Shown here: positions 48,673 to 64,000 of the stretch, piece after piece
How the letters are laid out: each line of letters begins with the position of its first letter
Position numbering within the stretch: position 1 is the stretch's first letter
NCBI GenBank assembly: GCA_964577715.1
Contig: CAZOAA010000001.1
Coordinates: 13,396-77,395, forward strand
Direction of reading: 5' to 3'
DNA: 64,000 nt
From: an uncultured Candidatus Thioglobus sp.
Lineage (GTDB): Bacteria; Pseudomonadota; Gammaproteobacteria; PS1; Pseudothioglobaceae
Translations under genes and position numbers: made by a program
The notes under the pieces: generated by a model
Seen by the model: the letters and a program-made list of their open reading frames with translations, nothing else
What the model was told of the DNA's origin: nothing
Databases searched by the model: none

Positions 48673-50469
48673 ATGTGTGGTATAGCTGGAATTATCCATA
48701 ACCGCGACGCAGATTATGCGCCTTATGTGGAAAGTATGAACAAGGTTCAGCACCATAGAGGTCCTGATGATAGGGGTGTTGTATCAGTCAAGGGTGCGAC
48801 TTTAGGGCATACCAGATTAAGTATTGTAGATATAGATTCTGGTAACCAGCCCATGTTTTCTAGCGGTCAAGATTCAGTAATCACTTTTAACGGAGAGATT
48901 TACGGATATAAAAAAATAAGACAAGATCTTAATTATGATTTTGCTACTAATAGTGATACTGAGGTCGTTATTGCTTTATACAAGCAGCATGGCATCGATA
49001 TGTTTTCTAAACTTACAGGCATGTTTGCTTTTGGTATTTGGGACTCAAAGAAGCAATCTCTTCTGTTAGGGCGTGATAGGTTTGGCGAAAAGCCTTTATA
49101 TTATGCTTATGGTGAGAATGGTGAGTTTATTTTTGCTTCTGAAATTAAAGCAATTATTACCACAAATTTAGTCAAGCCAAAAGTTTCAAAAAAAGCAATC
49201 AGTCATTATTTTAAATATCTTTATATAGATCCATTGGAAACGATTTATGAAAATATTTACATTTTAGAGCCGGGTTTTTTTCTCGAATTTGCTAATGACA
49301 AAGTTAACATTAATAGGTATTACAACTATCCAGCGACACAAGATGCATCGATAGATGATGCTGTAAATATATTCAGGGAGAAGTTTGAAAAATCTGTTGA
49401 GAATCAATTAGTAGCGGATGTTGATGTCGGTGCTTTTTTAAGTGGGGGGTTGGATTCTAGCACCATAGTTGCCGTTGCGAGCAAATACAAGGCAAATTTA
49501 AAAACTTTCTCGTTTGGTTTTGAGGGATCAAAAAGTGAGTTGAGTTATGCAAGAGAAATTGCAAAAAAATACAACACTGACCATTATGAGTTGTTTGCCA
49601 GAAATATAGATATTGCAGAAGTGTTACTTAAAATGGCAGAAGTTTATGATGAGCCTTTTGCTGACTCATCGAATATCCCGACATATTTAATTTCTAAGTT
49701 AGCCGGAGAGCATTCTAAAGTTATTCTAACAGGTGATGGTGCGGATGAGTTACTTGGAGGGTATGAATGGTGGTATTCTGCGCTTTTAGGCGTTGGAAAT
49801 CCTCACAATGTTGTTAAAGAGGTGGTTTTGAAGGTTTTAGCAAAAAGTTTTTTTAAGGGAAGCAATATAAATGCAAATAGGTTGAAATACGGAAGAAAGT
49901 ATTCGACAGTAAAACAAGCGCATACAAACCGACCAACTTTTTTTACTGATAAAGATGTTAAGGATTTGCTTGATATAGATAATGACGACATTAGAAGCTA
50001 TATTTTTAAGGAAGAAAATACTATTAATGATGCCTTAAATATGGATTTGCAAGAGTATATGGCCGGAGATATTTTGGTTAAAACTGACAGAGCATCTATG
50101 GCTAATTCGCTAGAACTGAGATCGCCTTTTCTTGATGCAGATTTCGCATCATTTTGTATTTCATTGCCACACAGCTTAAAAATAAACAGTAATTCAGATA
50201 AGTTAATTTTAAGAAAAGCATACCAAGACATGTGGACCGAAAGTATTAGAAATAGAAACAAACAAGGTTTTGGATCTCCGGTTAATAAATGGCTAAAACA
50301 AAAAAATGTTCAAGCATTAAAAGACATATATTTCAATCAGTGTAGAAATGTGTTTTCGTGTATTTCTTTTGATGTTGCCAAACAATTCTTTTATAAAGAC
50401 AATTACCAGACTTGGGCATTATTGGTATTGTCTATCTGGTTTGAAAAGAATGCGAGTGATATTAAATGA
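48673..50469 (+). CDS. AsnB-type glutamine-hydrolysing amidotransferase (asparagine synthase family)
   Basis: N-terminal nucleophile MCGIAGI. PP-loop SGGLDSS. 598 aa. Confidence 0.88.
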   Translation: MCGIAGIIHNRDADYAPYVESMNKVQHHRGPDDRGVVSVKGATLGHTRLSIVDIDSGNQPMFSSGQDSVITFNGEIYGYKKIRQDLNYDFATNSDTEVVIALYKQHGIDMFSKLTGMFAFGIWDSKKQSLLLGRDRFGEKPLYYAYGENGEFIFASEIKAIITTNLVKPKVSKKAISHYFKYLYIDPLETIYENIYILEPGFFLEFANDKVNINRYYNYPATQDASIDDAVNIFREKFEKSVENQLVADVDVGAFLSGGLDSSTIVAVASKYKANLKTFSFGFEGSKSELSYAREIAKKYNTDHYELFARNIDIAEVLLKMAEVYDEPFADSSNIPTYLISKLAGEHSKVILTGDGADELLGGYEWWYSALLGVGNPHNVVKEVVLKVLAKSFFKGSNINANRLKYGRKYSTVKQAHTNRPTFFTDKDVKDLLDIDNDDIRSYIFKEENTINDALNMDLQEYMAGDILVKTDRASMANSLELRSPFLDADFASFCISLPHSLKINSNSDKLILRKAYQDMWTESIRNRNKQGFGSPVNKWLKQKNVQALKDIYFNQCRNVFSCISFDVAKQFFYKDNYQTWALLVLSIWFEKNASDIK

Positions 50470-51494
50470 AGTTTGATGTCATTATTGCAACCTATAACCG
50501 TGGAGAAAGTCTACGTACTTTGGTCGAACAGATTCTAGAGTGCAGTATATTGCCTGAGAATATTATTATTGTTGACTCTTCCACAGACAAAAATAAGGAC
50601 ATTTTAGATTTTGATAGGGTTTTGTATATTCACTCGAATTATGGTAACCAGCCATATCAGAGGTATGTTGGATATTTAGCATCGAAACAAGATATATTGT
50701 TTTATTTTGACGATGATATGCGTATTACTGACAAGGATTGTTTCAATAAGGTATTGGAATATTACAATGTTGGTAATGTTGTTGCTGTGCAGCCAAATTT
50801 TGACTATAAACATAAGTTCTTAGATCAAGGTGTGCCAAAGTCTAAACTTAGAGAATTGAGTAGAAAAAATCTTTTTTTTAGGTTTGCTAAGTCTGTATCG
50901 GGCATTCCAAGAATTAAAGAGGGCGGTTTTTGGCTGGCCGGTTTAAGGGGTGCTAGGCCAAAAGATACCGGATATATGGAATATTTCAATGGTCCGGTTT
51001 TTTCAGTTAAAAGAGCAGTGCTTTATCAAAATTTTAACTTTAATTTATTTAATCTCTATCAAAAAAAATACGGCAAGGCGGAGGATGCAATATTGGGATT
51101 TAGTGTTTCAAAACAAGGCAATATTGCTTTTTGTGAAAAAAAATATTTTTATCATGAAGATCAGAATGACTCTAGTTATGCTGTCAATATTTACACATAC
51201 AATAAAAGGGTTGCGTATTCAAGACTATACTTATCTTTTGAATATGCCAGATTACAAAAAAAATCAAAATTTATTGCTTTTTTACATTTCAATGTTTATT
51301 CGATAGGGCGAATGTTGTCTATGTTGATAAATCAGCTAATTTGCTTAGAAACAAAACGTTTTCAAGCATTTAAAGGATATTTATCAGGGTATCTTATGGC
51401 TTTATTTGATTTGCACAATATTAACAATGTTATATCAGCTTCATTTTGGAATGATAGATCGTTGGTAGATATTGGCAATAAAGAAGGTAGTTAA
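50466..51494 (+). CDS. GT2-family glycosyltransferase
   Basis: FDVIIATYNRGESL ... IIVDSS ... FYFDDDM. Confidence 0.7.
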   Translation: MKFDVIIATYNRGESLRTLVEQILECSILPENIIIVDSSTDKNKDILDFDRVLYIHSNYGNQPYQRYVGYLASKQDILFYFDDDMRITDKDCFNKVLEYYNVGNVVAVQPNFDYKHKFLDQGVPKSKLRELSRKNLFFRFAKSVSGIPRIKEGGFWLAGLRGARPKDTGYMEYFNGPVFSVKRAVLYQNFNFNLFNLYQKKYGKAEDAILGFSVSKQGNIAFCEKKYFYHEDQNDSSYAVNIYTYNKRVAYSRLYLSFEYARLQKKSKFIAFLHFNVYSIGRMLSMLINQLICLETKRFQAFKGYLSGYLMALFDLHNINNVISASFWNDRSLVDIGNKEGS

Positions 51495-52765: not shown

Positions 52766-53925
52766 AGATCTGCTATGTTCTGCCCCAATACTATAAAAAC
52801 AGCGCAGAGAATTTTTATCATATTGTTAACTTTTTAAATAAGCTTGGGGAAAAAGTTGAGCTCTATGTTATTGTTGAGAGAAGTGATACAGAAGTTGTCA
52901 TTGATAGTGCCAAACAAATTTTTTTATTAAAACCACAAACTCATCTTTTTAACATATCAAGATTTTTTCAATTAATAAAAATTTATTTTCTTCTTTATAG
53001 AAAAGGAATAAATTTATTTTTTATTCGAGCTTCATTGACTGGTGTTTTGCCAATGATTTTCGCAAATAGATTAATAAATTTCAATCGTGCCCAAGTTGTC
53101 TTTTGGAGTTGTGGGCAAGATGTTGTTCCGTTATCCTTTAGACCAACAAAAAAGAATTTAAAAAGGCTTTTGTCAAAATTTTTATCTAAGGTAGTTTTTA
53201 AAGGTATTAATCACTTGGCTACTGGCCCAGAGATTATGTCTGACTACTATCATAATCACTATGGCATTGGTCAAAGCAAGATTATTACACTTTATAATGA
53301 CATTTCTCCTGAGAGATTTTACCCAATCAAAAAACCCAAAGAAAAATCCCAGCTAAAGCAAGAATTGTTAGGTGCAGATAAAAAAGTTATGCTTTTTGTG
53401 CATACTTTTAATCGGTGTCGTGGAACAGATCTGCTACCTGCGATTGCTAAAAAGATTAAAGAATTAAATATGGATGCAATGGTTGTTGCCATTGGAAGAG
53501 ATGGAGATTATTCTGAGAAACTGAATGCGGAGACAGTGTCCAAAGGCCTGACAGGCTATTTGTTAAATTTAGGAGAAGTTGCAAATCGAAAAATCGAAAA
53601 ATATTACCAATTGGCAGATTTATTCTTAATGCCATCCAGAGGTGAGGGTTTTCCAAGAGTGTTATTAGAATCTATGGCATGTGGCTGCCCGCCATTATCG
53701 TTTGATGTCGGAGGCGTGAAAAATATTTTGCCAGAAGATACGCTGGATGATTTAGTTATATCTTCAATTGAAGACAGTAAGTTTATAGATCGAAGTCTTG
53801 AGATTATTGATAATAAGAAGTTGTTATCACAACTGTCTAACTCAGTTTTAGAGAAGGTTAAAACATATGAAACACAGAATATTGTTGATATGTATGTTGA
53901 GCAATTAGATAGAATTAACAAGTAA
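52762..53925 (+). CDS. GT4-family glycosyltransferase
   Basis: MPSRGEGFPRVLLESMACGCPPLSFDVGGVKNIL. Confidence 0.85.
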   Translation: MKICYVLPQYYKNSAENFYHIVNFLNKLGEKVELYVIVERSDTEVVIDSAKQIFLLKPQTHLFNISRFFQLIKIYFLLYRKGINLFFIRASLTGVLPMIFANRLINFNRAQVVFWSCGQDVVPLSFRPTKKNLKRLLSKFLSKVVFKGINHLATGPEIMSDYYHNHYGIGQSKIITLYNDISPERFYPIKKPKEKSQLKQELLGADKKVMLFVHTFNRCRGTDLLPAIAKKIKELNMDAMVVAIGRDGDYSEKLNAETVSKGLTGYLLNLGEVANRKIEKYYQLADLFLMPSRGEGFPRVLLESMACGCPPLSFDVGGVKNILPEDTLDDLVISSIEDSKFIDRSLEIIDNKKLLSQLSNSVLEKVKTYETQNIVDMYVEQLDRINK

Positions 53926-54611
53926 TGATTGTATCGATACATCAACCGAACTTTTTCCCGTGGATGGGGTATTTTGACAAAATTAACAGAAGTGATGTAT
54001 TTGTATTACTAACATCGTCCACGCGCTCAAAAAATGATAAATATCTAACAAGAACAAAAATATTGAATAATAATTCGACTTCACAATATCTATCAATTCC
54101 ATTAGGCACAAAACAAATACCAATCAATCATCTTAAGATGCCAATAGATAAAACATGGAAACAAAAGTCACTAAATAGAATCCAAGAATCCTATAGAAAC
54201 GCAAATTTTTTTGATGAGGTTTATGATGATATTGAAAGGCTTTTTATGTTTGAGTCTGAACAATTCTCGGACTATAGCGCCAACATAATTAATTTTTTTA
54301 TCACTAAGTTTAATATTGATACTAAACTGTATGTAGATACCAGTTTTAATCAGGATTTTGGCACGTCAAATCAAAGAAATATTGCAATTTGTAATAAGCT
54401 AGGGGCGGATATCTATTTGTCAGGCAATGGTGCAAAAACCTATAATGACGAGCGACTCTATAAACAAAACTCAATCAAACTAATGTATCAAAACTATACG
54501 CCTGTATCTTACCAACAGGCTTCTAATGATTTTATTGCTGGCCTTTCGATTATTGATGCTATTTTTAACTGTGGCTATAAAGCTACAGAGAGCTTAATTA
54601 AACAACCTTAA
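53925..54611 (+). CDS. WbqC-family protein (function unknown)
   Basis: N-terminal IHQPNFFPWMGYFDKI is the family signature. 228 aa. Confidence 0.8.
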   Translation: MIVSIHQPNFFPWMGYFDKINRSDVFVLLTSSTRSKNDKYLTRTKILNNNSTSQYLSIPLGTKQIPINHLKMPIDKTWKQKSLNRIQESYRNANFFDEVYDDIERLFMFESEQFSDYSANIINFFITKFNIDTKLYVDTSFNQDFGTSNQRNIAICNKLGADIYLSGNGAKTYNDERLYKQNSIKLMYQNYTPVSYQQASNDFIAGLSIIDAIFNCGYKATESLIKQP

Positions 54612-54613
54612 AA

Positions 54614-55651
54614 ATGAAAGAGCAGTTAGTTGCAAAGCCGTTCCAAAAATTTACCAATAGCGAGTGGGATAAGTTACTAGATGATTTTAATGCAACAGTT
54701 AATTACACCTCGTGGTTTATTGATTACCTTGAGGTTTTAAATACCCAAACCCAAATAAAAAATTTTACATTTACACTTATTGATAATACTAAGGTTGTTG
54801 CTATCGTTCCCCTATATATTGAAAAAATTAGTAATCGTTGGCAGATGTCTACAGGACAGGAGCCAATTTTTGCCCCAATCTTTTCAAAAAACATATCTAA
54901 TGATAGGGTTTTGGACTATTATCAATTTATTATTGAGCAAATAGACGACACCGCTAATAAACATAAATGTATTTTGGCGCGTTTTCAGTATTCTCCCTTG
55001 TTGCACACTAAATTTAGTCGTAATTATTTTGTGGAGCTAGGATATAAAAAACACATTCTACACCCTGATTGGTATATGTTTAAGGCTAGTAATAGTTATG
55101 TGATTGATTTAAAACAGCCAAAAGACCAACTATTTAAAAAAATTCGAAAGGGTCATAGAGCCAATATTAACCGAACAAAAAAGATTGCGAAGTTGATTAT
55201 ATTGGATGCTTCAACCTTTGATCAAAAAATATTCAAACAATACATTGAATTGTTTTATCAAGTAAAAGGTAACAAAAGAACCAAAGAAGCATTTGCACAA
55301 GATTTAAATGCAATTAAATTTGGACATGAGATTGTGATGATATGCGAATATAATGAATTGTTAGTTGGTGCGATAGCAATACATATACACAATAAAAAAG
55401 CAAGATATAATTCATCTATACAACTTTATGGACTTAGTAAAGATTTATATCCAAATCATTTTTTATTAAGTTCGGCAATTAGTTATTTAAAAGATAGGGA
55501 ATTTGAGTTATTTGAAATTGGAGAACAGGTGCAAGAAAGTAATTTATACAAGGTTTCAAAAAAAGAAAAGAACTTATCGCATTTTAAGTCTGGCTGGGGT
55601 GGCGATTTACATCCTTGCATGAAAGCTCAAAGGGAGTTTATGCATGTTTAA
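54614..55651 (+). CDS. FemAB-like / GNAT-fold acyl(aminoacyl)transferase
   Basis: 345 aa. KIRKGHRANINRTKK motif and tandem-GNAT length typical of FemAB-family proteins. Confidence 0.45.
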   Translation: MKEQLVAKPFQKFTNSEWDKLLDDFNATVNYTSWFIDYLEVLNTQTQIKNFTFTLIDNTKVVAIVPLYIEKISNRWQMSTGQEPIFAPIFSKNISNDRVLDYYQFIIEQIDDTANKHKCILARFQYSPLLHTKFSRNYFVELGYKKHILHPDWYMFKASNSYVIDLKQPKDQLFKKIRKGHRANINRTKKIAKLIILDASTFDQKIFKQYIELFYQVKGNKRTKEAFAQDLNAIKFGHEIVMICEYNELLVGAIAIHIHNKKARYNSSIQLYGLSKDLYPNHFLLSSAISYLKDREFELFEIGEQVQESNLYKVSKKEKNLSHFKSGWGGDLHPCMKAQREFMHV

Positions 55652-56306
55652 AACGGATAAAAGATTAAAAATTTTAGCAATAGGTGCACATGGAGATGAT
55701 ATTGAATTAGCCTGCGGTGGAACGCTTGCAAAAGCCACAGAAAATAACCACGAAGTTGAAATGGTATTGGTGACTGGTAATGGCTCAAGTGATCATAATG
55801 ATGTAACAATTAGAGCAGATGATGTAGCTGAACAAGAGGCAAAAACTGCAGCCGAAGTTTTAGGTGTTTCAAACTTGCATATTCTTGGTTATCAAGATAC
55901 CTGTGTGCCATACTCGGTTGATTTGGTTGCTGAGCTGGATGGGATTATTAGTAGATTTGAACCGGACATTATCTTCACTCATTTTGTATTTGATACACAT
56001 CAAGATCATATTCGCACTGCACACTCTACTATTTCAGCAGCTAGACGTCAAAACACAATTTTTTTATATGAACCTATCAACCCATCGGGGCAAGGGTATG
56101 TGCCGTTTAGGCCACAAACATATGTAGACATTACCAAAACCATAGATAAAAAAGTCGAGTCGTTAAAGGCGCACAAATCCCAATACGAAAAATATACAGA
56201 TAAATGGATAGATGCTGTTGTTGCTAGGGCGCAATTTAGAGGGTTCGAGATGGGAGTTAATTATGCTGAGTGTTTCGAGGTGGTGCGCTCTGAGCTAAGG
56301 TTGTAG
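55644..56306 (+). CDS. PIG-L/LmbE-family N-deacetylase
   Basis: ILAIGAHGDDIELACGGTLAK and THQDH metal-binding motifs. Confidence 0.82.
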   Translation: MFKTDKRLKILAIGAHGDDIELACGGTLAKATENNHEVEMVLVTGNGSSDHNDVTIRADDVAEQEAKTAAEVLGVSNLHILGYQDTCVPYSVDLVAELDGIISRFEPDIIFTHFVFDTHQDHIRTAHSTISAARRQNTIFLYEPINPSGQGYVPFRPQTYVDITKTIDKKVESLKAHKSQYEKYTDKWIDAVVARAQFRGFEMGVNYAECFEVVRSELRL

Positions 56307-56312
56307 AAAAGC

Positions 56313-57029
56313 ATGTCTGAGTGGAGAAAACAAGCCATAACGCTATTTAACGAGTTGGTGTCAGAGCACCAGATTAAATCAGTTTTTGAGGTTGGTTGTG
56401 ATGATGCGGGAATATCGAGGCAATTGGCAAAAAGGTATCCTAATATTTATTTTGATGGTATTGACTATAGAGAAGATAAAATCAACGAAGCCAATCAGTT
56501 ACGCAAACAAGATAATTTGACCAACACCCATTTCTCCTTTGATTATTTTTTAGATATCAAAAATATTGACAAGCAATATGACGTGGTAATTTTTACTGAG
56601 GTTTATGAGCATTTGGTTGCCGAAAATCAAATATACGCACTTAGACTGTTAGGTAATTTATTATCTGACAATGGGTTGATTATTTTTACTTGTCCAAATG
56701 GAGACTATTTATTGTCGTATTTAGAAAAGGGAAAGGACTTTAATAGTAGATATGACCAAGGTTTTTTTGATAACATGCACCAAACAGAGCACTGGTTGGA
56801 ACCAACACATAAGGAGCTAAAAAAAATATTTATATCATTAGGTTTTGATATTGTAAAGTCTGGGTATTTTAATTTGCCCAAAAGACGTTTTCTATTAATA
56901 GAAAAAGTTGAATTAATATTCAATAAAATCCCGTTTTTTAGAGATTGGCTATTTAAAAGCCAGTATCTACTGGCGCGAAAAAATCCCAATAGCCCTCTGT
57001 TAAAGCGACTAAATCTTTATGCAAATTGA
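56313..57029 (+). CDS. Class I SAM-dependent methyltransferase
   Basis: VFEVGCDDAG, DVVIFTEVYEHL, LSDNGLIIFTCP. Confidence 0.75.
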   Translation: MSEWRKQAITLFNELVSEHQIKSVFEVGCDDAGISRQLAKRYPNIYFDGIDYREDKINEANQLRKQDNLTNTHFSFDYFLDIKNIDKQYDVVIFTEVYEHLVAENQIYALRLLGNLLSDNGLIIFTCPNGDYLLSYLEKGKDFNSRYDQGFFDNMHQTEHWLEPTHKELKKIFISLGFDIVKSGYFNLPKRRFLLIEKVELIFNKIPFFRDWLFKSQYLLARKNPNSPLLKRLNLYAN

Positions 57030-58093
57030 GAGGTTTATTGCACATGATCTATAATAGGCCTTTAAAAGATTATTATGTCGATTACGACAGTAAGAATATC
57101 GGTAGCTACGTTCCATTTTTACTTGGCCGGAACGCGATAAATTATGTGATCGAGTCGTTATCAGTCAAATCAATTTTGTTGCCTGCCTTTATATGCCCTA
57201 TGGTTGTTGATATTTTTAAGCATCATAAGATTGAGGTTTTTTTTTATGATGCGCTGGATAAAAAATTATCTATTCCAATTGATGCGATAGTAAATGAACT
57301 GAGCAAAATAAAAAGCAATAATCAATTATTTTTTCTATGGCATGATTATCTTGGCGTTGTTGGCGATATGCCAATTGAAATATACGATTATTTATCAACA
57401 AATAATATAAAAGTGATTATTGATGCCACACATTCCTTGCCCAATGAAAAATATAAGTCTGAAGTTGTGATTTATGGCTATAGAAAATTATTGAATGAAC
57501 CTTTTGGCGCGCTTTTAAAGATGGAATCCGACCCTGGCATTATTGCAAAAAATAACAAGCCTTGGTTAAAATTATGGATCATTTTTTTAGTGTATAAATT
57601 AAAGTCAAATTTGTTATATACATTTGGTTTCTTTAGTAATATCACTATTGTCAGTAAAATACTAAAAAGGCTTTCTGTAATTGACAAAACTTTAAGCTTT
57701 GATAGCAACAATCTTTTTTTAATAGATAGTTTTAAGCATAATAAAATTCTTGCTAAATATAAGAGGCTGGATTATCGAAAGATTTGTTCGCAAAGACAAA
57801 AAAATTTTCTCAGATATGCTGAAAAACTGTCCATGCCAATCGGTTTAGACAAAAATCACATATCATGTCCATATGGGTTTCCATTTTTTACTAAAAACAG
57901 TAGAGCTTTAAGAAAAAAATTGTGGGATGGTAATATCCATTCATTTATTTTGTGGAAAGACCTTCACAATGATATTCCTAGCAAAAATAAAGAGTGCGCA
58001 CATTTTTTATCAAATTCCATTATTGTGTTGCCAGTCAACCATGATTTGTCAAGTAAAGATATTGACAAAGTTATAGAGGTGGTTAGTGGCTGA
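57026..58093 (+). CDS. Divergent DegT-like PLP-fold protein (aminotransferase-like)
   Basis: GRNAINYVIESLSVKSILLPAFICPMVV, IIDATHSL, YGYRKLL (possible PLP-Lys). Confidence 0.4.
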   Translation: MRGLLHMIYNRPLKDYYVDYDSKNIGSYVPFLLGRNAINYVIESLSVKSILLPAFICPMVVDIFKHHKIEVFFYDALDKKLSIPIDAIVNELSKIKSNNQLFFLWHDYLGVVGDMPIEIYDYLSTNNIKVIIDATHSLPNEKYKSEVVIYGYRKLLNEPFGALLKMESDPGIIAKNNKPWLKLWIIFLVYKLKSNLLYTFGFFSNITIVSKILKRLSVIDKTLSFDSNNLFLIDSFKHNKILAKYKRLDYRKICSQRQKNFLRYAEKLSMPIGLDKNHISCPYGFPFFTKNSRALRKKLWDGNIHSFILWKDLHNDIPSKNKECAHFLSNSIIVLPVNHDLSSKDIDKVIEVVSG

Positions 58094-59240
58094 TTACAAT
58101 ATTTGTTTGGTTAGTCGATCAATCTACCCCTATCCAATTGAAAAGCACACTCAAAATATGCAAACATTTGAGGGTTGGTTGCGTTTTTTTAACAATGTTG
58201 TCGTTGTTTCTCAGTGTAGATCTAAAACAATTAAAAAAAGTCAGTATAAAAATATTTTTGGCACCTTGCTGCCACTTATCAAGAATAGGTATATCAACGT
58301 TGTGTATTTTAATATTTATGGCTTAATTCAAGCATTAAGACTTGATAAAATTTATCGATTCGATATTTTTCAAGCAAGCGACGCAGGTGGGGCTTTTTTA
58401 GCATATCTAGCAAGCCGTGCAACTGGAGCTAAGTTTGTTTTTGAGGTGCAGGGCGATATTTTTGGTTATCCAAACCATGTAGGCGGAAGAATACATTCTT
58501 CTTTGGTTAAATTTTTCAGCAAATTGATTGTTAAAAAAGCAGATTATGTCCGGATTGTATCCCCCTTTTTGTATGATTATTTAGATAAATATAACATCAG
58601 CAGATCAAAAGTATTTCTTGTTCCCCCGAGGTGTGATAGTTTGTTGTTTAATCCAAACAATGCGGGCGATATGCCAGATGCCCTAAGAAATAATCAATTT
58701 AATATTTTATTTGTGGGAAATCTGCTTATCGCCAAAGGTGTTGATATTTTATTAGAGGCATTTGCATTAATTGTTGCTGAAAATGCTAATGTCGGTTTGG
58801 TATATATTGGCGATGGCGAGGAATTGGATCAACTTAGGTCAAGAGCCAAAGAGTTGCATGTAAGTGAAAAAGTTTTTTTTGAAGGTAGGGTAGATTACAA
58901 ACGCATTGTGGATTATATGCACTACGCCAATATTTTGGTTTTACCCTCAATAGAAGAGGGTGTTGGGCGAGTTCTACTTGAAGCGATGTCAATGAAACTG
59001 CCTATAGTTGCCAGCAATGTTGGCGGAATACCATTGGTTGTTGATGATAATATAAGTGGGTTATTATTTGAAGTTGGTGACATAAGATCTTTAAAGAAAA
59101 AAGTTCTTATGCTGATTAACAATCAAGATTTTTCCAAACATTTGGTCAAAAATGCCAATATTAAATTTATGAAAAATTATGATTACGAAGTTTCAATGGA
59201 TAAGTTTATTAAGATGTATCAATCAATATTGGAGTCATAA
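58086..59240 (+). CDS. GT4-family glycosyltransferase
   Basis: VLPSIEEGVGRVLLEAMSMKLPIVASNVGGIPLVV. Confidence 0.85.
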   Translation: MADYNICLVSRSIYPYPIEKHTQNMQTFEGWLRFFNNVVVVSQCRSKTIKKSQYKNIFGTLLPLIKNRYINVVYFNIYGLIQALRLDKIYRFDIFQASDAGGAFLAYLASRATGAKFVFEVQGDIFGYPNHVGGRIHSSLVKFFSKLIVKKADYVRIVSPFLYDYLDKYNISRSKVFLVPPRCDSLLFNPNNAGDMPDALRNNQFNILFVGNLLIAKGVDILLEAFALIVAENANVGLVYIGDGEELDQLRSRAKELHVSEKVFFEGRVDYKRIVDYMHYANILVLPSIEEGVGRVLLEAMSMKLPIVASNVGGIPLVVDDNISGLLFEVGDIRSLKKKVLMLINNQDFSKHLVKNANIKFMKNYDYEVSMDKFIKMYQSILES

Positions 59241-59242
59241 TT

Positions 59243-60292
59243 TTGGCCAAGATACTAAGGTTATATACACGTCTGCCACCACTGCCAGGAGGTATGGAAA
59301 AACATATCTCGCAGCTAAGCCAGGAGCAAAGAAAATTAGGACATGGTGTTAGTATTTTTTTTAACCATGGGGAGAAGGTAAGTGATGCCGATGTTAGGGT
59401 GAGCAATATCCCTTTATGGCGTATAAAGCCTCAATCTATAGCAATTTTGTTGTTTCATATTTTTGTTATTTTTAAGTTGATTTTAAGGCGTGAACAATTT
59501 GATATTGTCCACATTCATGGAGATTGGAGCGGGTTGATTTTGGCGTCGTTAATAAAATCATTTGCCCAAGCAAAAAAGATTTTTCTTTCAGTGCACGATG
59601 AGATTATTGATCGAAAACTAACCAACCTTTTTTTTAAAATATTGCTGAATCGTGTAGATATAGTTTTTGCCACGGGAGCAAAGGCTTGTGGACAGTTGCA
59701 AGAGCTAACAGATAAGAAAGTGGTATTGCAACCAAGTGGTATTAATAATATCTACATTACAGAATGCGAAAAATTAACAAAATCAGGCAAACAGATTCTC
59801 ACAGTTGCAAACTTAGTTGAGAGTAAAAATTTAGATCTGGTGTTAGATGTTGCCAAAAAACTACCCAATATAAATTTTTTGATAGCAGGTGATGGCCCTG
59901 AGCGAGATAGACTTATAAATAGAATTCATAATGAGAAAATTGATAACATTAAAATTTTAGGGTATAAAAAAGATTTTGAATTATGGCAGTTGTATTGTGG
60001 TAGTGATATTTTCTTACTGACATCCACTAGAGAAGGGACACCTACTGTTATTCTAGAGGCGATGGCATGTGGCTTGCCAATTGTTAGCACTGATGCAGGA
60101 GGTATTGATAATATAGTTGGTGAGAATAATTGTGTAACTTCGTCTAGAAATAAAGATCAATTAATTGAGTGTATTAATAAAATAATTGCAGATTCTAAGC
60201 TGAGAGCTAAAATTACAAGAGAAAATAAAATATTCGGCAGGGGGTGCAGTTGGCCTACAGTTGTAAAAAATATCAATCATTTTTTTACATAA
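59243..60292 (+). CDS. GT4-family glycosyltransferase (TTG start)
   Basis: LLTSTREGTPTVILEAMACGLPIVSTDAGGIDNIV. Confidence 0.85.
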   Translation: MAKILRLYTRLPPLPGGMEKHISQLSQEQRKLGHGVSIFFNHGEKVSDADVRVSNIPLWRIKPQSIAILLFHIFVIFKLILRREQFDIVHIHGDWSGLILASLIKSFAQAKKIFLSVHDEIIDRKLTNLFFKILLNRVDIVFATGAKACGQLQELTDKKVVLQPSGINNIYITECEKLTKSGKQILTVANLVESKNLDLVLDVAKKLPNINFLIAGDGPERDRLINRIHNEKIDNIKILGYKKDFELWQLYCGSDIFLLTSTREGTPTVILEAMACGLPIVSTDAGGIDNIVGENNCVTSSRNKDQLIECINKIIADSKLRAKITRENKIFGRGCSWPTVVKNINHFFT

Positions 60293-60295
60293 ATT

Positions 60296-61360
60296 GTGAA
60301 CAGGGTTTTTGATTTGAAAAAGATATTAATTTTATTTTCAAGTTCGGATATTGGCGGCGCTGAGCGCTCGTTAAGTAGAATGGCGTTAGCAAATTCCGAC
60401 TCAAAAATTCAATACCAGTTATCCACATATGGGAATGTTGGCACTTGGTCTGAATGGATATTAGATCTAGGTCATAAACCCATATGTTTTAATTTTAAAC
60501 TTAGTGAGTTAATTAAATACATTCTATCTGAAAAGCCGGATATTGTTTATGTTTGTGGATTTAGAATTTCTTTATTTTTAAGGTTTATTTTGCTATTAAT
60601 TAAGGATGTTGATCTTGTTCAAGGGGTTCGTTGGAATCCTAATTCTGATACTAAATTAGACAGAGTATTTAGATTTTTTGAGCGTTACACACAACACTTT
60701 GTGAAAGGTTATATTGCCAATTCTAAATCTGCCAGTGATACATTGAGAAAATTTGTTAAAAATGATGAAAAAGTAATGCTTATATATAATGGTATTGAGC
60801 CAAAGAAGCTGATACCTCAGGCGAATGGGAATAGAGTAACCACCATTGCCAATCTTAGTGTTAGGAAAGGCTATAAGGAGTATCTTAAAGTTATAAAGAT
60901 CGTGGTGAAAAAAATCCCAAATGCGCAGTTTTTTTTTATAGGCAAGGATAGACTCAATGGAGAAATTCAACAGTTAATTAAAGAATATGAATTATCAAGT
61001 AATATTGAATATGTGGGTTTTCAAGAAAACGTGAATAGTTATCTTGCTGAAAGTTTGATTTTTGTTTTGCCGTCACTCTATGGAGAGGGGTGCCCTACAA
61101 GTATTTTAGAGGCTTTTATGCATCAAATACCGGTCGTTGCGTATAAGATTGACGGGATACCAGAATTGGTAACTGATGGTATTGATGGATATTTATCTGA
61201 TGTTGAGGATGTAGAAAGTATGGCTGGGCATATTTTTGCCTTGTTATCAAATACCAATCAGGCAAAAAATATGGGAGAGAGTGGTCGGCAAAAAGTCATT
61301 CATCATTTTTCATTAGAAAAAATGACCAAATTACACAATAAATATTTTTTAGGAGCTTAA
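60296..61360 (+). CDS. GT4-family glycosyltransferase (GTG start)
   Basis: N-terminal SSSDIGGAERS. VLPSLYGEGCPTSILEAFMHQIPVVAYKIDGIPELV. Confidence 0.85.
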   Translation: MNRVFDLKKILILFSSSDIGGAERSLSRMALANSDSKIQYQLSTYGNVGTWSEWILDLGHKPICFNFKLSELIKYILSEKPDIVYVCGFRISLFLRFILLLIKDVDLVQGVRWNPNSDTKLDRVFRFFERYTQHFVKGYIANSKSASDTLRKFVKNDEKVMLIYNGIEPKKLIPQANGNRVTTIANLSVRKGYKEYLKVIKIVVKKIPNAQFFFIGKDRLNGEIQQLIKEYELSSNIEYVGFQENVNSYLAESLIFVLPSLYGEGCPTSILEAFMHQIPVVAYKIDGIPELVTDGIDGYLSDVEDVESMAGHIFALLSNTNQAKNMGESGRQKVIHHFSLEKMTKLHNKYFLGA

Positions 61361-61361
61361 C

Positions 61362-64000
61362 GTGTGCGGTGTTGCTGGTCTGATTAACTTCAAAAATGAT
61401 TATATTGAAACCATAAAAAAAAGCCTTTATCACCGAGGGCCAGACGCACAAACACATTATCAATATAAAAATCTTAGTTTAATACACACACGTTTATCTA
61501 TACAAGATGTTAAGCATGGCGACCAGCCTTTTATTATTGGCAACCATGTGATTGTATTTAATGGCGAGATATACAACCATCTATCACTTAGAAGAAAGGT
61601 AAAAAGACACCAATTTAAAACCCAATCGGATACTGAAACCCTTTTGGCTTTATATATTGAATATGGATCTAAGGCTCTGGAGATGTGTGATGGTATGTTT
61701 GCATTTGTTATTTTTAATAAAGAAAATAACTCTATAACCCTTGGTAGAGATCGAATTGGTAAAAAACCACTTTATATACACAAAAATAAAAATAAAATTT
61801 TTATCGCCAGTGAGCTTAATGTTTTTCTTCAGGTATTGCCAGATTTATCTATTAATGAACAGGCAATAGAGTCTTATCTGCGATGTGGTTTTTTCTATTC
61901 TGGAATCACACCTTATAAAAATACACAGGAGATATTACCAGGCCATGTTTATCAAATTGATATTCACTCAATGGTAATTAAAAAACAATGTTATTTTGAT
62001 ATAGCTAAACAATACAACACCAAAATATCGATTAATCATAATGAGGCTGTTGAAGAGTTAGATAGTCTTTTACGAAAAAGTATTATAAATCGACTAATTT
62101 CTTCCGATCTTAAAGTTGGTGCTTTTCTTAGTGGCGGTGTCGACAGCTCGTTAATTACTGCAATAGCAAGTGAATACACAGATAACTTGAAAACATTTAC
62201 GGTTAAATTTGATAAGGGTATTGATGAGTCTTATCTTGCTAGAAAAACCGCACAACTTCTTTCAACACAACACCATGAACTTGGTATCGCAATGGATTTA
62301 AAAAATGATGTGGAAAATATACTTACTTCCTATGGCGAGCCATTTATGGATAGTAGTGCAATCCCTAGTTATTATGTAAGTCGTGAGGCAAAAAAACACC
62401 TGACAGTTGTGCTTAATGGCGATGGCGCAGATGAGTTATTTGCTGGATATAGACGCTATGTTCCAAGTTATAACAATTGGCACAGTTACGCAAAAAAAAT
62501 TCATTTAGTCAGAAAAATTCTCCCCATTCCTAAAGATAAACAAACTTACTATAATTATTTTTATAGATTGTTGATGATGTCAAATAAGGAAGGGTTGGAT
62601 TATTATCTTTCTTCAACCACAGACATATTCGAAGATTTTTACAGATTCAATACCAATAATACAGTTCTGCTAGAAATAGAGTCGCTGATAAAGCGTATTA
62701 ACAATCAAAATATTTCTAATTTATCCAAATCATTGATTATGGATTCCAAACTTATTTTGCCAAGTGATTTGTTAAAAAAAATGGATATTGCGACTATGGC
62801 AAACTCGGTTGAGGCAAGGAGCCCTTTTCTGAGTAAATATTTACTAGAATGGGTGCCGAAATTACCTGATCGTGAAAAGATCAGTGGTATAAATACAAAA
62901 TATATTTTAAGGGAATTGCTTAAGAAATATTCTCTTAACTATCTTGCTTTAGAGCCTAAAAAAGGTTTTGAGGTGCCTCTAAATTTTTGGGTCAACAATG
63001 ATTTGAAAGAAAATATTTATGACAGAGTGGGGAACAATTCTTATGCTACTCAATTTATAGATACTGCATTTGTTAACAAGCTATTAAGTAATAAGGAGTA
63101 TTTTCCACAAGAGAAACGTGCAAAGATGCTATGGAGCTTATATGCATTAGAAGTTTGGCACAGTAATTATCTACATTGTGCCAAAAATATCAAAACAGAT
63201 GTGCCGATTCTCTCATCAACTCGAGTAAACATATTATTGCTAACAACTGGTTTAGGTTTGGGCGGCGCTGAAAGAGTTGTGCTTGATATTTGTAAGAATA
63301 TTAATAAAAATAAATTCAAACCAATGGTTATTAGTATTTCAAGTCAGGATGAGATGTTAGATGATTTTATCAATTCAAAAATAGACGCAGAAGTGCTAAA
63401 CCATAAAAAAACCATAACCAACTTTATAGTTTCGATACGACATATTTATAAAAAAGTAAAAATAAATGACATAAAAATTATTCATGTGCATATGTTCCAT
63501 GCATTGTTGATCTCCAGTGTCATTAAATTTATTCGACCATCAGTAAAAATTATTTTTACACCTCATAATAGCTTTAAAGCAATGAAGATAAGGCGCTGGT
63601 TACTTTGGATGTTAAAACCATGGCGTGATTTAGATACCGTTTTTTCAAATGGTGCACTTAGTTATTTTCATAAATTAAACAACAAAATTATTCCGAACGC
63701 CATTAATATTTATGAATACAACCCTAACCCTAACCCTAACTCTCTTTTCACTTTTATTATTATTGGCCGTTTAGAAAAAATGAAAAACCATCAGTTTTTA
63801 ATTTCTGTAGTTAGTCGATTAAAGCAATATAACTTTCAGTTGCTCATTGTGGGATCTGGCATTCTTGAGAAGTCATTAAAAATACAGGTCAAGTCTTTAA
63901 ATTTAGATGACAGAATAAAATTTTTAGGTGCGAGAAGGGATGTGCCAGATTTGTTAGAAAAATCTGATTGTTTGTTGCTGCCTTCGCTTTGGGAGGCTTT
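61362..64000 (+). CDS. AsnB-type amidotransferase fused in frame to a GT4 glycosyltransferase domain (3'-partial, runs off the window)
   Basis: This ORF is not in the supplied track because it has no stop in the window. GTG at 61362 gives MCGVAGLINF (Ntn Cys). PP-loop SGGVDSS at about 62130. I translated the frame by eye to 63998 and found no stop. At about 63220 it continues as RVNILLLTTGLGLGGAERVVLDI, then IIIGRLEKMKNH ... LLLPSLWEA, i.e. GT4 N- and C-domain motifs. Confidence 0.7.
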   Translation, partial: MCGVAGLINFKNDYIETIKKSLYHRGPDAQTHYQYKNLSLIHTRLSIQDVKHGDQPFIIGNHVIVFNGEIYNHLSLRRKVKRHQFKTQSDTETLLALYIEYGSKALEMCDGMFAFVIFNKENNSITLGRDRIGKKPLYIHKNKNKIFIASELNVFLQVLPDLSINEQAIESYLRCGFFYSGITPYKNTQEILPGHVYQIDIHSMVIKKQCYFDIAKQYNTKISINHNEAVEELDSLLRKSIINRLISSDLKVGAFLSGGVDSSLITAIASEYTDNLKTFTVKFDKGIDESYLARKTAQLLSTQHHELGIAMDLKNDVENILTSYGEPFMDSSAIPSYYVSREAKKHLTVVLNGDGADELFAGYRRYVPSYNNWHSYAKKIHLVRKILPIPKDKQTYYNYFYRLLMMSNKEGLDYYLSSTTDIFEDFYRFNTNNTVLLEIESLIKRINNQNISNLSKSLIMDSKLILPSDLLKKMDIATMANSVEARSPFLSKYLLEWVPKLPDREKISGINTKYILRELLKKYSLNYLALEPKKGFEVPLNFWVNNDLKENIYDRVGNNSYATQFIDTAFVNKLLSNKEYFPQEKRAKMLWSLYALEVWHSNYLHCAKNIKTDVPILSSTRVNILLLTTGLGLGGAERVVLDICKNINKNKFKPMVISISSQDEMLDDFINSKIDAEVLNHKKTITNFIVSIRHIYKKVKINDIKIIHVHMFHALLISSVIKFIRPSVKIIFTPHNSFKAMKIRRWLLWMLKPWRDLDTVFSNGALSYFHKLNNKIIPNAINIYEYNPNPNPNSLFTFIIIGRLEKMKNHQFLISVVSRLKQYNFQLLIVGSGILEKSLKIQVKSLNLDDRIKFLGARRDVPDLLEKSDCLLLPSLWEA
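63720..63740 (+). repeat. (AACCCT)x3.5 hexanucleotide tandem repeat inside the GT4 domain
   Basis: aac cct aac cct aac cct aac encodes NPNPNPN between the two Rossmann halves of the GT4 domain. Confidence 0.9.

What the first reader, a model, noticed from the sequence alone, without database searches (positions are those of the whole stretch)
61362..64000. AsnB-type amidotransferase fused in frame to a GT4 glycosyltransferase (ORF missing from the supplied track)
Seen:
- A GTG at 61362, two nt after the stop of the previous GT4 gene, opens a frame that I translated to the window end without meeting a stop.
- Residues 1 to about 610 form a complete AsnB-like protein (MCGVAGL Ntn-Cys, SGGVDSS PP-loop, C-terminal ...LWSLYALEVWHSNYL).
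- That end aligns with the end of the stand-alone paralogue at 48673..50469 (...LLVLSIWFEKN).
- After a linker of about 12 residues the same frame continues as a GT4 N-terminus (RVNILLLTTGLGLGGAERVV) and on into the C-terminal Rossmann half.

Established: AsnB homologues in O-antigen and capsule clusters amidate uronic acids to uronamides, as proposed for the WbpS and WbtH types.

Inference: fusion to a glycosyltransferase would couple amidation and transfer of a uronamide sugar in one polypeptide. I do not know this architecture as characterised.
Basis: partly seen in the sequence, partly recalled or inferred. Interest (0 to 1): 0.6.

Follow-up and report, generated by a model that had tools for sequence, protein, structure and literature searches.

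The report
Amidotransferase fused to a glycosyltransferase
A real 965-residue gene in a cell-surface sugar cluster joins an asparagine-synthetase-like amide-forming enzyme to a sugar-adding enzyme; the fusion is conserved in marine bacteria and uncharacterised, and it probably makes an amidated acidic sugar at one defined position of the surface polysaccharide.

Summary
The frame that opens at GTG 61362 has no stop up to the window end. In the contig it runs on to a stop, giving a 965-aa protein. This protein has a complete AsnB-type glutamine amidotransferase (residues 1 to about 609), a disordered linker of about 12 residues, and a complete GT4 glycosyltransferase (621-965).

It is not an assembly artefact. 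Thirty-three 90%-identity clusters of full-length fused relatives (962-986 aa, 47-63% identity) exist in marine metagenomes, at least one in a syntenic locus. In Ca. Thioglobus autotrophicus the same gene is cut in the linker by an IS element. Joining the flanks restores a 968-aa fusion.

The fusion is evolutionarily labile. Close AsnB relatives often lack the fused GT and sit directly before the next GT4. Unrelated AsnB-GT4 fusions of about 1000 aa exist in other lineages, labelled only "asparagine synthase".

Function is inferred, not shown. My reading is that a WbpS-like domain turns a sugar carboxylate into a primary amide during assembly of the repeat unit, coupled to the neighbouring transfer step. 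I found no paper that characterises this architecture.

Verdict: a new variant of a known kind, of moderate interest. It bears on the untested question of the stage at which WbpS-type enzymes act.

The parts
61351..61355 (+). Shine-Dalgarno-like AGGAG, 6 nt before the GTG start
   Evidence: Read directly from the sequence.
61362..64000 (+). Fused AsnB-GT4 ORF. Its first 879 codons lie in the window. The full gene is 965 aa and ends at window-equivalent position 64259 (L002:758-3655).
   Evidence: Identical protein P0003 is on record.
61362..61931 (+). Class II (Ntn) glutaminase domain. Cys2 follows the initiator. The glutamine-site residues are HTRLSIQD (42-49), NGEIYNH (67-73) and SDTE (89-92).
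   Evidence: Pfam GATase_7 and GATase_6. Residue-level alignment to E. coli AsnB 1CT9. Motif coordinates.
62055..63164 (+). Asn_synthase (ATP pyrophosphatase / acyl-adenylate-forming) domain, with the PP-loop SGGVDSS at 62130-62150.
   Evidence: Pfam PF00733, 264 bits. TIGR01536, 380.7 bits against a cut-off of 267. Fold match to TsnB9 7YLZ and AsnB 1CT9, TMt 0.75-0.79.
63189..63221 (+). Inter-domain linker (residues about 610-620). It varies in length and sequence among relatives and has no conserved internal start codon.
   Evidence: Alignment A1. AlphaFold2 pLDDT is below 50 at residues 613-618 while both flanking modules exceed 90.
63222..63740 (+). GT4 N-terminal Rossmann half (acceptor side) of the fused glycosyltransferase 'GTa', with the glycine-rich GLGGAERV at 63255-63278.
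   Evidence: Pfam Glyco_transf_4 at residues 634-760. Fold match to PglH/WlaC 6EJI, TMt 0.81.
63720..63740 (+). In-frame (AACCCT)3.5 repeat encoding NPNPNPN in the loop between the two Rossmann halves.
   Evidence: Relatives carry SHSHSHS at the same alignment position.
63741..64000 (+). Start of the GT4 C-terminal Rossmann half (donor side). GRLEKMKNH lies at 63765-63791. The EX7E motif (EAFPITLLE) lies at 63993-64019 and so straddles the window end.
   Evidence: Pfam Glycos_transf_1. Motif coordinates. Full domain seen in L002.
60296..61360 (+). Upstream GT4 gene (354 aa). It is a conserved neighbour of the fusion in syntenic loci.
   Evidence: It is 55% identical to the gene in the same position in Ca. 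T. autotrophicus. A 353-aa GT4 occupies the same position in L047 and L046.
48673..50469 (+). Stand-alone AsnB paralogue (598 aa), 35% identical to the fused AsnB domain. It is a second amidotransferase in the same locus.

Best explanation
The gene encodes a genuine bifunctional enzyme of O-antigen/capsule repeat-unit assembly. The N-terminal module is a glutamine-dependent, ATP-dependent AsnB-type amidotransferase. It should activate a sugar carboxylate as an acyl-adenylate and convert it to a primary amide with ammonia tunnelled from its own glutaminase site. The most likely substrate is the C6 carboxylate of a HexNAc-uronic acid made by the genome's TviB-type UDP-GlcNAc 6-dehydrogenases. 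The C-terminal module is a retaining GT4 glycosyltransferase that works on the undecaprenyl-diphosphate-linked oligosaccharide. It probably adds the third sugar, after the small phosphoglycosyltransferase and the adjacent GT4 'GTb'. A short flexible linker tethers the amidotransferase to this membrane-proximal assembly step, so amidation happens at one defined position of the repeat unit. My preferred order is as follows: GTb adds the uronic acid, the AsnB module amidates it on the lipid-linked intermediate, and the fused GTa then extends the amidated acceptor. Shown here: the domain architecture, the integrity of catalytic motifs, conservation of the fusion, and the locus context. Inferred: the substrate, the stage at which amidation occurs, and the order of the steps.
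For: The ORF is intact and complete.

Both modules fold confidently (mean pLDDT 92) and only the linker is disordered.

Catalytic motifs are present:
- Cys2, the R/N-G-E/D glutamine site and the PP-loop.
- The GT4 EX7E motif.

The fusion is conserved:
- 33 fused clusters at 47-63% identity and 100% coverage.
- The syntenic locus L047 has the same order: GT4, fusion, GTb, Bac_transf, CapD, epimerase.
- No conserved internal start lies in the linker.
- In Ca. T. autotrophicus an IS with 19-nt inverted repeats and an 8-bp target duplication sits in the linker. Joining the flanks gives a 968-aa fusion.

Locus logic: AsnB(+/-GTa), then GTb, then the initiating transferase, then a CapD/WbpM-like dehydratase.

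The genome encodes two TviB-type UDP-GlcNAc 6-dehydrogenases above the NCBIfam cut-off. One joins the start of this contig through unique 55-bp overlaps.

Genetic evidence that AsnB homologues in glycan loci make uronamides:
- P. gingivalis PGN_1234 (PMC7468200).
- H. pullorum wbpS, whose mutant also blocks the next transferase (PMC6025236).

Precedent for a fused amidating domain plus GT in which the acceptor is amidated first and then extended: Cj1438 (PMC11800397, PMC11800379).

Independent AsnB-GT4 fusions with unrelated GT4 domains exist in other lineages, which suggests repeated selection for the coupling.
Against: - There are no biochemical or genetic data for this protein or any fused relative.
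- The AsnB module scores far below the cut-off of TIGR03108, the family said to hold WbpS and WbqG (364.6 against 816.9 bits). It does pass the generic asparagine synthase model.
- No UDP-sugar 6-dehydrogenase lies within about 75 kb of the gene. None was seen in the 5-8 kb flanks of the fused or orthologous (56-64% identical) AsnB loci. The only two tblastn hits, L029 and L037, flank distant 30-36% paralogues.
- The fused state has changed at least 6 times on the AsnB tree. Close relatives work without GTa, so covalent coupling is not essential.
- Stand-alone GTa-like enzymes occur in loci with no AsnB at all.
- The locus also carries modules for other acidic sugars (earlier notes), which could supply a different carboxylate.
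- pTM is only 0.68 and the linker is disordered, so there is no evidence for a fixed inter-domain channel.
Confidence: 0.6

Rival explanations
1. The AsnB module amidates the nucleotide sugar (UDP-HexNAcA to UDP-HexNAcAN) and hands it directly to the fused GT4, which uses the uronamide as its donor.
For: This is the textbook proposal for WbpS, making UDP-GalNAcAN (quoted in PMC6025236; listed as proposed in PMC7685785). Fusion would raise the local donor concentration. GT4 enzymes use nucleotide-sugar donors.
Against: The review states that the UDP-GalNAcAN pathway is not based on experimental data. In most relatives AsnB is paired with GTb, not GTa. GTa-like enzymes are common in loci without any AsnB, so GTa does not generally need an amidated donor. 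No rigid interface or channel is predicted. In the solved analogue Cj1438, amidation follows transfer.
Confidence: 0.2
2. The fusion is functionally neutral. Two adjacent genes of the same pathway merged when a stop codon was lost. The domains act independently, and tethering gives no kinetic or positional benefit.
For: The fused state is gained or lost repeatedly (at least 6 changes). The IS-split version keeps both ORFs intact. Relatives lacking GTa exist. The linker is flexible and there is no confident interface.
Against: The fusion persists across 47-63% sequence divergence in 33 clusters, with the linker kept open and no internal start. The architecture arose with unrelated GT4 domains in other lineages, which argues for selection.
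Confidence: 0.15
3. The AsnB module amidates a carboxylate other than a hexuronic acid. Candidates are an ulosonic-acid carboxyl or an amino-acid substituent made by other modules of this very large locus.
For: The locus carries CMP-sugar-acid modules and a WbqC/FemAB-like/PIG-L cassette (earlier notes; FemAB-like and PIG-L hits). No uronic-acid dehydrogenase is close by. The score is below the TIGR03108 cut-off.
Against: The AsnB-GTb-initiating transferase-CapD core recurs in Campylobacterota, SAR86, Marinisomatota and Bacteroidota loci. In the fetched flanks these loci do not show those extra modules. The only genetically tested glycan-locus AsnB homologues make uronamides.
Confidence: 0.1
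4. It is an artefact or pseudogene: a sequencing or assembly frameshift wrongly joined two genes.
For: The genome is a draft assembly of 80 contigs. Reads could not be inspected.
Against: Thirty-three independent fused clusters from many samples exist, some on up to 13 contigs. Both domain boundaries align without gaps. The empty-site reconstruction in T. autotrophicus gives the same 968-aa fusion.
Confidence: 0.02

Closest known systems
WbpS / WbqG / PGN_1234-type AsnB homologues of O-antigen and glycan loci (P. aeruginosa O6, E. coli O121, H. pullorum, P. gingivalis)
   Same: Glutamine-dependent AsnB fold with Cys1 and a PP-loop. Encoded inside a surface-glycan locus, next to GT4 genes, an initiating transferase and a WbpM/CapD-like dehydratase. 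Expected product is a sugar uronamide.
   Different: Those proteins are stand-alone, about 600-630 aa. This one carries a complete GT4 at its C-terminus. It scores below the TIGR03108 cut-off. I could not compare it directly with WbpS because no sequence was at hand.
Campylobacter jejuni Cj1438 (GT2 domain + ATP-dependent amidoligase domain)
   Same: One polypeptide combines a glycosyltransferase with an enzyme that amidates the C6 carboxylate of a uronic acid in a surface polysaccharide. Amidation gates chain extension (PMC11800397, PMC11800379).
   Different: The domains are unrelated and in the opposite order: an N-terminal GT2 and a C-terminal amidoligase that uses serinol or ethanolamine phosphate, against an N-terminal AsnB that uses glutamine-derived ammonia and a C-terminal GT4. 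Cj1438 belongs to an ABC-transporter capsule pathway, not an Und-PP repeat-unit locus.
E. coli asparagine synthetase B (1CT9) and TsnB9 hydroxyamidotransferase (7YLZ)
   Same: Same two-domain fold (TMt 0.75-0.79) and conserved glutaminase and PP-loop residues.
   Different: 24-25% identity to AsnB and 21-22% to TsnB9. The C-terminal substrate region is diverged, the residue equivalent to E348 is Asp, and the protein is fused to a GT4 in a glycan locus, so a housekeeping role in asparagine synthesis is unlikely.
GT4 enzymes acting on lipid-linked glycans: PglH/WlaC (6EJI), PglA (8DVZ), and BshA (5D00)
   Same: GT-B fold, EX7E motif and retaining GT4 signature (TMt about 0.8).
   Different: 15-22% identity. 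Donor and acceptor are unknown. It is fused to an amidotransferase.
XrtA/PEP-CTERM EPS loci: TIGR03108 amidotransferase next to TIGR03088 GT4
   Same: These are the best subfamily hits for both halves. AsnB and GT4 co-occur as a module in exopolysaccharide loci.
   Different: Both scores are far below the family cut-offs. I saw no exosortase context, and the genes are separate in those systems.

Membership tests
AsnB / class II glutamine amidotransferase (TIGR01536, Pfam GATase_7 + Asn_synthase) | N-terminal nucleophile Cys directly after the initiator Met | tested here: met
   GTG-TGC gives M-C-G-V-A-G. C2 is nearly invariant in alignment A1.
AsnB / class II glutamine amidotransferase (TIGR01536, Pfam GATase_7 + Asn_synthase) | Glutamine-binding residues (Arg49, Asn74-Gly-Glu76 and Asp98 of E. 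coli AsnB) and the PP-loop SGGxDS | tested here: met
   HTRLS, NGEIYNH, SDTE and SGGVDSS align to 1CT9.
AsnB / class II glutamine amidotransferase (TIGR01536, Pfam GATase_7 + Asn_synthase) | Profile score above the curated cut-off | tested here: met
   TIGR01536, 380.7 bits against 267.1. PF00733, 264 bits against 21.
AsnB / class II glutamine amidotransferase (TIGR01536, Pfam GATase_7 + Asn_synthase) | Catalyses aspartate to asparagine | not testable with these tools
   The context argues against a housekeeping role. The genome has a third AsnB-like gene on contig C3.
WbpS/WbqG-type uronamide-forming amidotransferase (TIGR03108 eps_aminotran_1) | Profile score above the curated cut-off of TIGR03108 | tested here: not met
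   364.6 bits against a cut-off of 816.9, matched in two stretches.
WbpS/WbqG-type uronamide-forming amidotransferase (TIGR03108 eps_aminotran_1) | Encoded in a surface-glycan locus with GT4s, an initiating transferase and a WbpM/CapD-type dehydratase | tested here: met
WbpS/WbqG-type uronamide-forming amidotransferase (TIGR03108 eps_aminotran_1) | The organism can make UDP-HexNAc-uronic acid (WbpO/TviB-type dehydrogenase) | tested here: met
   Two TviB-type genes, 664.5 and 656.8 bits against a cut-off of 592. One is joined to this contig through 55-bp overlaps. It lies about 77 kb away, not adjacent.
WbpS/WbqG-type uronamide-forming amidotransferase (TIGR03108 eps_aminotran_1) | Uronamide present in the product, and lost on gene inactivation | not testable with these tools
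   Shown only for homologues (PMC7468200, PMC6025236).
GT4 retaining glycosyltransferase (GT-B) | Glyco_transf_4 and Glycos_transf_1 halves above Pfam cut-offs | tested here: met
   42.3 bits against 28.5, and 61 bits against 26.4, on the truncated window protein. The full domain is present in L002.
GT4 retaining glycosyltransferase (GT-B) | EX7E motif in the C-terminal half | tested here: met
   E878-AFPITLL-E886, conserved in A1.
GT4 retaining glycosyltransferase (GT-B) | GT-B two-Rossmann fold | tested here: met
   AlphaFold2 pLDDT above 90. Foldseek TMt is 0.79-0.84 to 6EJI, 5D00, 4XSR and 8DQD.
Cj1438-type bifunctional GT/amidoligase | GT2 domain plus C-terminal ATP-dependent amidoligase that uses an amine phosphate | tested here: not met
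   The domains here are AsnB and GT4, in the opposite order. It is a functional analogue only.

The most novel reading that the evidence does not exclude
The fusion may be a 'Rosetta stone' showing that WbpS-type amidotransferases do not act on the soluble UDP-sugar pool, as textbooks propose. On this reading they act on the lipid-linked oligosaccharide at the membrane. The AsnB module amidates the uronic acid just added by the neighbouring GT4, and the fused GT4 extends only the amidated acceptor. That would give position-specific amidation in repeat units that contain both the acid and the amide form of a sugar.
Probability: 0.35. Interest if true: 0.55.

Novelty: new variant of a known kind. 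Interest (0 to 1): 0.4.

Why it matters
Uronamide sugars occur in O antigens and glycans of several pathogens and many environmental bacteria. Genetics ties them to AsnB-like WbpS/WbqG enzymes. The step has not been reconstituted in the literature I could search, and the stage at which it acts is openly stated to be unknown (PMC7468200). A review says the UDP-GalNAcAN route is not based on experimental data (PMC7685785).

A conserved covalent fusion of such an enzyme to a lipid-linked-glycan GT4 gives three things:
- a natural hint about where the step happens;
- a natural split control, the IS-interrupted copy in Ca. Thioglobus autotrophicus;
- a single, well-folded expression target for testing amidation and transfer together.

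It also corrects an annotation trap. These 960-1020-aa proteins are named only "asparagine synthase" in public records.

Tried and rejected
- **E. coli O121 wbqG.** I ran DNA-level blastn of the AsnB half against all complete E. coli genomes to reach wbqG and found no match. I therefore made no direct comparison with WbqG or WbpS.
- **A simple 'adjacent genes fused' origin.** I expected the split relatives to carry GTa right after AsnB. They carry GTb instead, so this origin is rejected.
- **The 971-aa and 605-aa members of one 90% cluster.** I suspected a frameshift polymorphism. They turned out to be two different loci in the same assembly.
- **UDP-sugar dehydrogenase near AsnB orthologues.** I looked in the fetched flanks. 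The only two hits were next to distant paralogues, so this is uninformative.
- **Literature.** Three searches for an AsnB-GT fusion or a uronamide-forming fusion returned nothing relevant.
- **Internal translation start for the GT half.** There is no conserved Met/Val or Shine-Dalgarno sequence in the linker. I consider it unlikely but it is not excluded.
Full report
**Observation**

The frame starting at GTG 61362 is open to the end of the window (879 codons). The start is credible. The second codon is TGC, which gives the obligatory N-terminal Cys of class II amidotransferases. An AGGAG lies 6 nt upstream, and the preceding GT4 gene stops at 61358-61360.

The window is G000:C1:13396-77395. 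In the contig the frame continues to a stop at L002:3655, which corresponds to window position 64259. The protein is 965 aa. Pfam finds GATase_7/6 (27-156), Asn_synthase (232-601), Glyco_transf_4 (634-760) and Glycos_transf_1 (from 792), all above their cut-offs. The junction DNA (63100-63340) has no in-frame stop and no Shine-Dalgarno or conserved start for a separate GT.

**Integrity of the two modules**

Against solved structures, the N-half aligns to E. coli AsnB 1CT9 (E 1.5e-42), TsnB9 and human ASNS. The C-half aligns to BshA, PglH/WlaC and PglA.

- The glutamine-site residues are conserved (HTRLS, NGE, SDTE), as are Cys2 and the PP-loop SGGVDSS.
- The residue equivalent to E. coli E348 is Asp.
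- The GT4 EX7E motif is E878-E886.

I ran AlphaFold2 on a 111-sequence alignment. Mean pLDDT is 92.1, and the only segment below 50 is 613-618, in the linker. pTM is 0.68. This describes two well-folded modules on a short flexible tether with no confident fixed interface. Foldseek finds AsnB-family structures (TMt 0.75-0.79) and GT4 structures (TMt about 0.8) for the two parts.

**Is the fusion real and conserved?**

A full-length search of the 5.8-billion-protein collection returned the protein itself and 33 further clusters. These are 962-986 aa, 47-63% identical, cover 100% of the query, and all carry both Pfam families. Below them come stand-alone AsnB proteins of about 600-625 aa. Several fused clusters have many members from independent samples.

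One fused relative, P0008 (seen on 13 contigs), lies in a locus syntenic with the window. Its gene order is WbqC, PIG-L, methyltransferase, GT4s, fusion, GTb, small Bac_transf phosphoglycosyltransferase, CapD-like dehydratase, epimerase.

The alignment shows both domain boundaries in register. The linker varies in length and sequence (about 12-30 residues) and has no conserved internal Met/Val. Assembly artefact is therefore very unlikely.

**A natural split**

In Ca. Thioglobus autotrophicus (CP137632) the syntenic locus has this order: AsnB of 624 aa, an IS1595-family transposase, a 351-aa GT4 that is 56-57% identical to the fused GT, GTb, Bac_transf, CapD.

- The IS spans L025:7867-8606.
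- It has perfect 19-nt inverted repeats and an 8-bp target duplication, AAAAAATA.
- Joining the flanks in silico gives an uninterrupted 968-aa ORF whose junction reads ...EIYLSNKKINVLFLTTGLG, like the fused relatives.

So that gene was a fusion and was cut exactly in the linker. The left inverted repeat supplies a TGA for the AsnB half. The right inverted repeat supplies an ATG for the GT half, overlapping the transposase stop as ATGA.

**Evolutionary pattern**

Within the window's own taxonomic family (122 species genomes) only this genome has the fused form. One other genome has a stand-alone orthologue at 57% identity.

In species-representative genomes of Campylobacterota, SAR86, Marinisomatota, Piscirickettsiaceae and Bacteroidota, the AsnB orthologue stands alone (56-58% identity in the first four groups, about 39-47% in Bacteroidota). 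Outside Bacteroidota it is usually followed directly by the orthologue of GTb. GTb is the 377-aa GT4 that lies downstream of the fusion; identity is mostly 48-52%. The following gene is not the orthologue of the fused GT, here called GTa.

GTa-like stand-alone enzymes (38-47% identity) are common. In the three loci I examined they sit without any AsnB, and in at least two of them they lie upstream of a GTb-like gene. At 55% identity or above, GTa relatives are only the IS-split copy or fragments of fusions.

On a tree of the AsnB module, 26 of the 34 fused proteins form one well-supported clade. Four stand-alone proteins are nested inside it, including the IS-split one and P0042, whose locus goes from AsnB straight to GTb. 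At least 6 changes of state are forced (FastTree, so only indicative).

One assembly carries both a fused locus and an unfused AsnB-GTb locus.

A search of 1.84 billion 50%-identity representatives found five more AsnB-GT4 fusions of about 1000 aa. They are only 28-33% identical in the AsnB part and 24-26% identical in the GT part. One is a Bacteroidetes MAG protein (OFY62609.1) named only "asparagine synthase". The architecture is therefore recurrent, present in public databases, and unannotated as such.

**Context and likely chemistry**

The AsnB half passes the generic asparagine synthase model TIGR01536. Its next-best hit is the XrtA/PEP-CTERM amidotransferase TIGR03108, far below that model's cut-off. 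The GT half is closest to TIGR03088, also below its cut-off.

According to PMC7468200, WbpS and WbqG belong to the TIGR03108 family. That paper also shows that deleting P. gingivalis PGN_1234 abolishes the uronamide. In H. pullorum, a wbpS mutant puts HexNAcA in place of HexNAcAN, and the next transferase no longer extends the glycan.

The present genome has two TviB-type UDP-GlcNAc 6-dehydrogenases above the NCBIfam cut-off, plus a Ugd. Contig C60, which carries one TviB gene, joins C77 and then the start of C1 through unique exact 55-bp overlaps. The dehydrogenase therefore lies at the head of the same very large glycan region, about 77 kb upstream.

The gene order places GTb next to the initiating phosphoglycosyltransferase and GTa one step further along. 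This is why I assign GTa to the third sugar. That assignment is inference.

**Mechanism**

Three orders are possible:

- (a) Amidate the UDP-sugar, then transfer it.
- (b) GTa transfers the uronic acid, then AsnB amidates it.
- (c) GTb transfers the uronic acid, AsnB amidates it on the lipid-linked intermediate, and GTa extends the amide.

I favour a post-transfer order, and (c) over (b), for three reasons:

- AsnB is associated with GTb across taxa.
- GTa-like enzymes do not generally need AsnB.
- In the only reconstituted analogue, Cj1438, amidation occurs after the uronic acid has been incorporated, and the fused GT then extends only the amidated acceptor.

None of this is demonstrated for the present protein. 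A review states that the UDP-GalNAcAN route is not based on experimental data. PMC7468200 says the position of WbpS in the pathway is unknown.

Other acidic sugars encoded in the locus (earlier notes) remain alternative substrates.

**Verdict**

This is a new variant of a known kind: a WbpS-like amidotransferase covalently joined to a GT4. It is conserved but evolutionarily labile, it is uncharacterised, and I found no literature on it. Interest is moderate. The fusion is not surprising in principle, but it offers a direct handle on an acknowledged gap in glycan biosynthesis.

Noticed in passing
L025:7867-8606 (Ca. Thioglobus autotrophicus CP137632): A 740-bp IS1595-family element with perfect 19-nt inverted repeats and an 8-bp target duplication (AAAAAATA) splits the orthologous fusion gene exactly in the linker. 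Its ends supply a TGA stop for the AsnB half and an ATG for the GT half. That ATG overlaps the transposase stop as ATGA, so the GT half may be translationally coupled to the transposase.
   Followed up: yes
window 63720-63740: An in-frame (AACCCT)3.5 repeat encodes NPNPNPN in the loop between the two Rossmann halves of the fused GT4. Relatives, including T. autotrophicus, carry an SHSHSHS repeat at the same alignment position. This loop therefore repeatedly hosts short hexanucleotide repeats of variable length.
   Followed up: partly
G000 contigs C60, C77, C1 (upstream of window start): C60 (4.9 kb, ending with a TviB-type UDP-GlcNAc 6-dehydrogenase), C77 (2.2 kb) and C1 are linked by unique exact 55-bp end overlaps, so the glycan region extends beyond the contig. 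A near-duplicate block (TviB-type dehydrogenase, APS kinase, FAD-oxidase-like gene, lactonase-like gene, GMD, fucose synthase) on C36 probably caused the assembly break.
   Followed up: partly
L039/L040 and L041/L042 (assembly GCA_002163355.1): One assembly carries both a fused AsnB-GTa locus (followed by an epimerase, GTb, a WecA-type transferase and CapD) and a second locus with a more than 90% identical stand-alone AsnB directly followed by GTb. This looks like module shuffling between glycan loci.
   Followed up: partly
P0339, P0341, P0357, P0367, P0368 (public proteins, 994-1022 aa): These are distant AsnB-GT4 fusions with the same domain order, 28-33% identical in the AsnB part and 24-26% in the GT part. 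One is NCBI OFY62609.1 from a Bacteroidetes MAG, annotated only as asparagine synthase. They are probably independent fusions.
   Followed up: partly
window 48673-50469 and 50466-51494: A second, stand-alone AsnB paralogue (598 aa, 35% identical to the fused one) overlaps the start of a gene with a GT2-like N-terminus. The locus may therefore amidate two different positions. A third AsnB-like gene lies on contig C3 (44353-45654).
   Followed up: no
window 53925-58093: Upstream of the three GT4 genes (58086-61360) that precede the fusion lies a cassette of WbqC-family, FemAB-like, PIG-L deacetylase, methyltransferase and DegT-like genes. The cassette region is conserved in T. autotrophicus (PIG-L, methyltransferase, L025) and in metagenomic locus L047 (WbqC, PIG-L, methyltransferase).
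   Followed up: no
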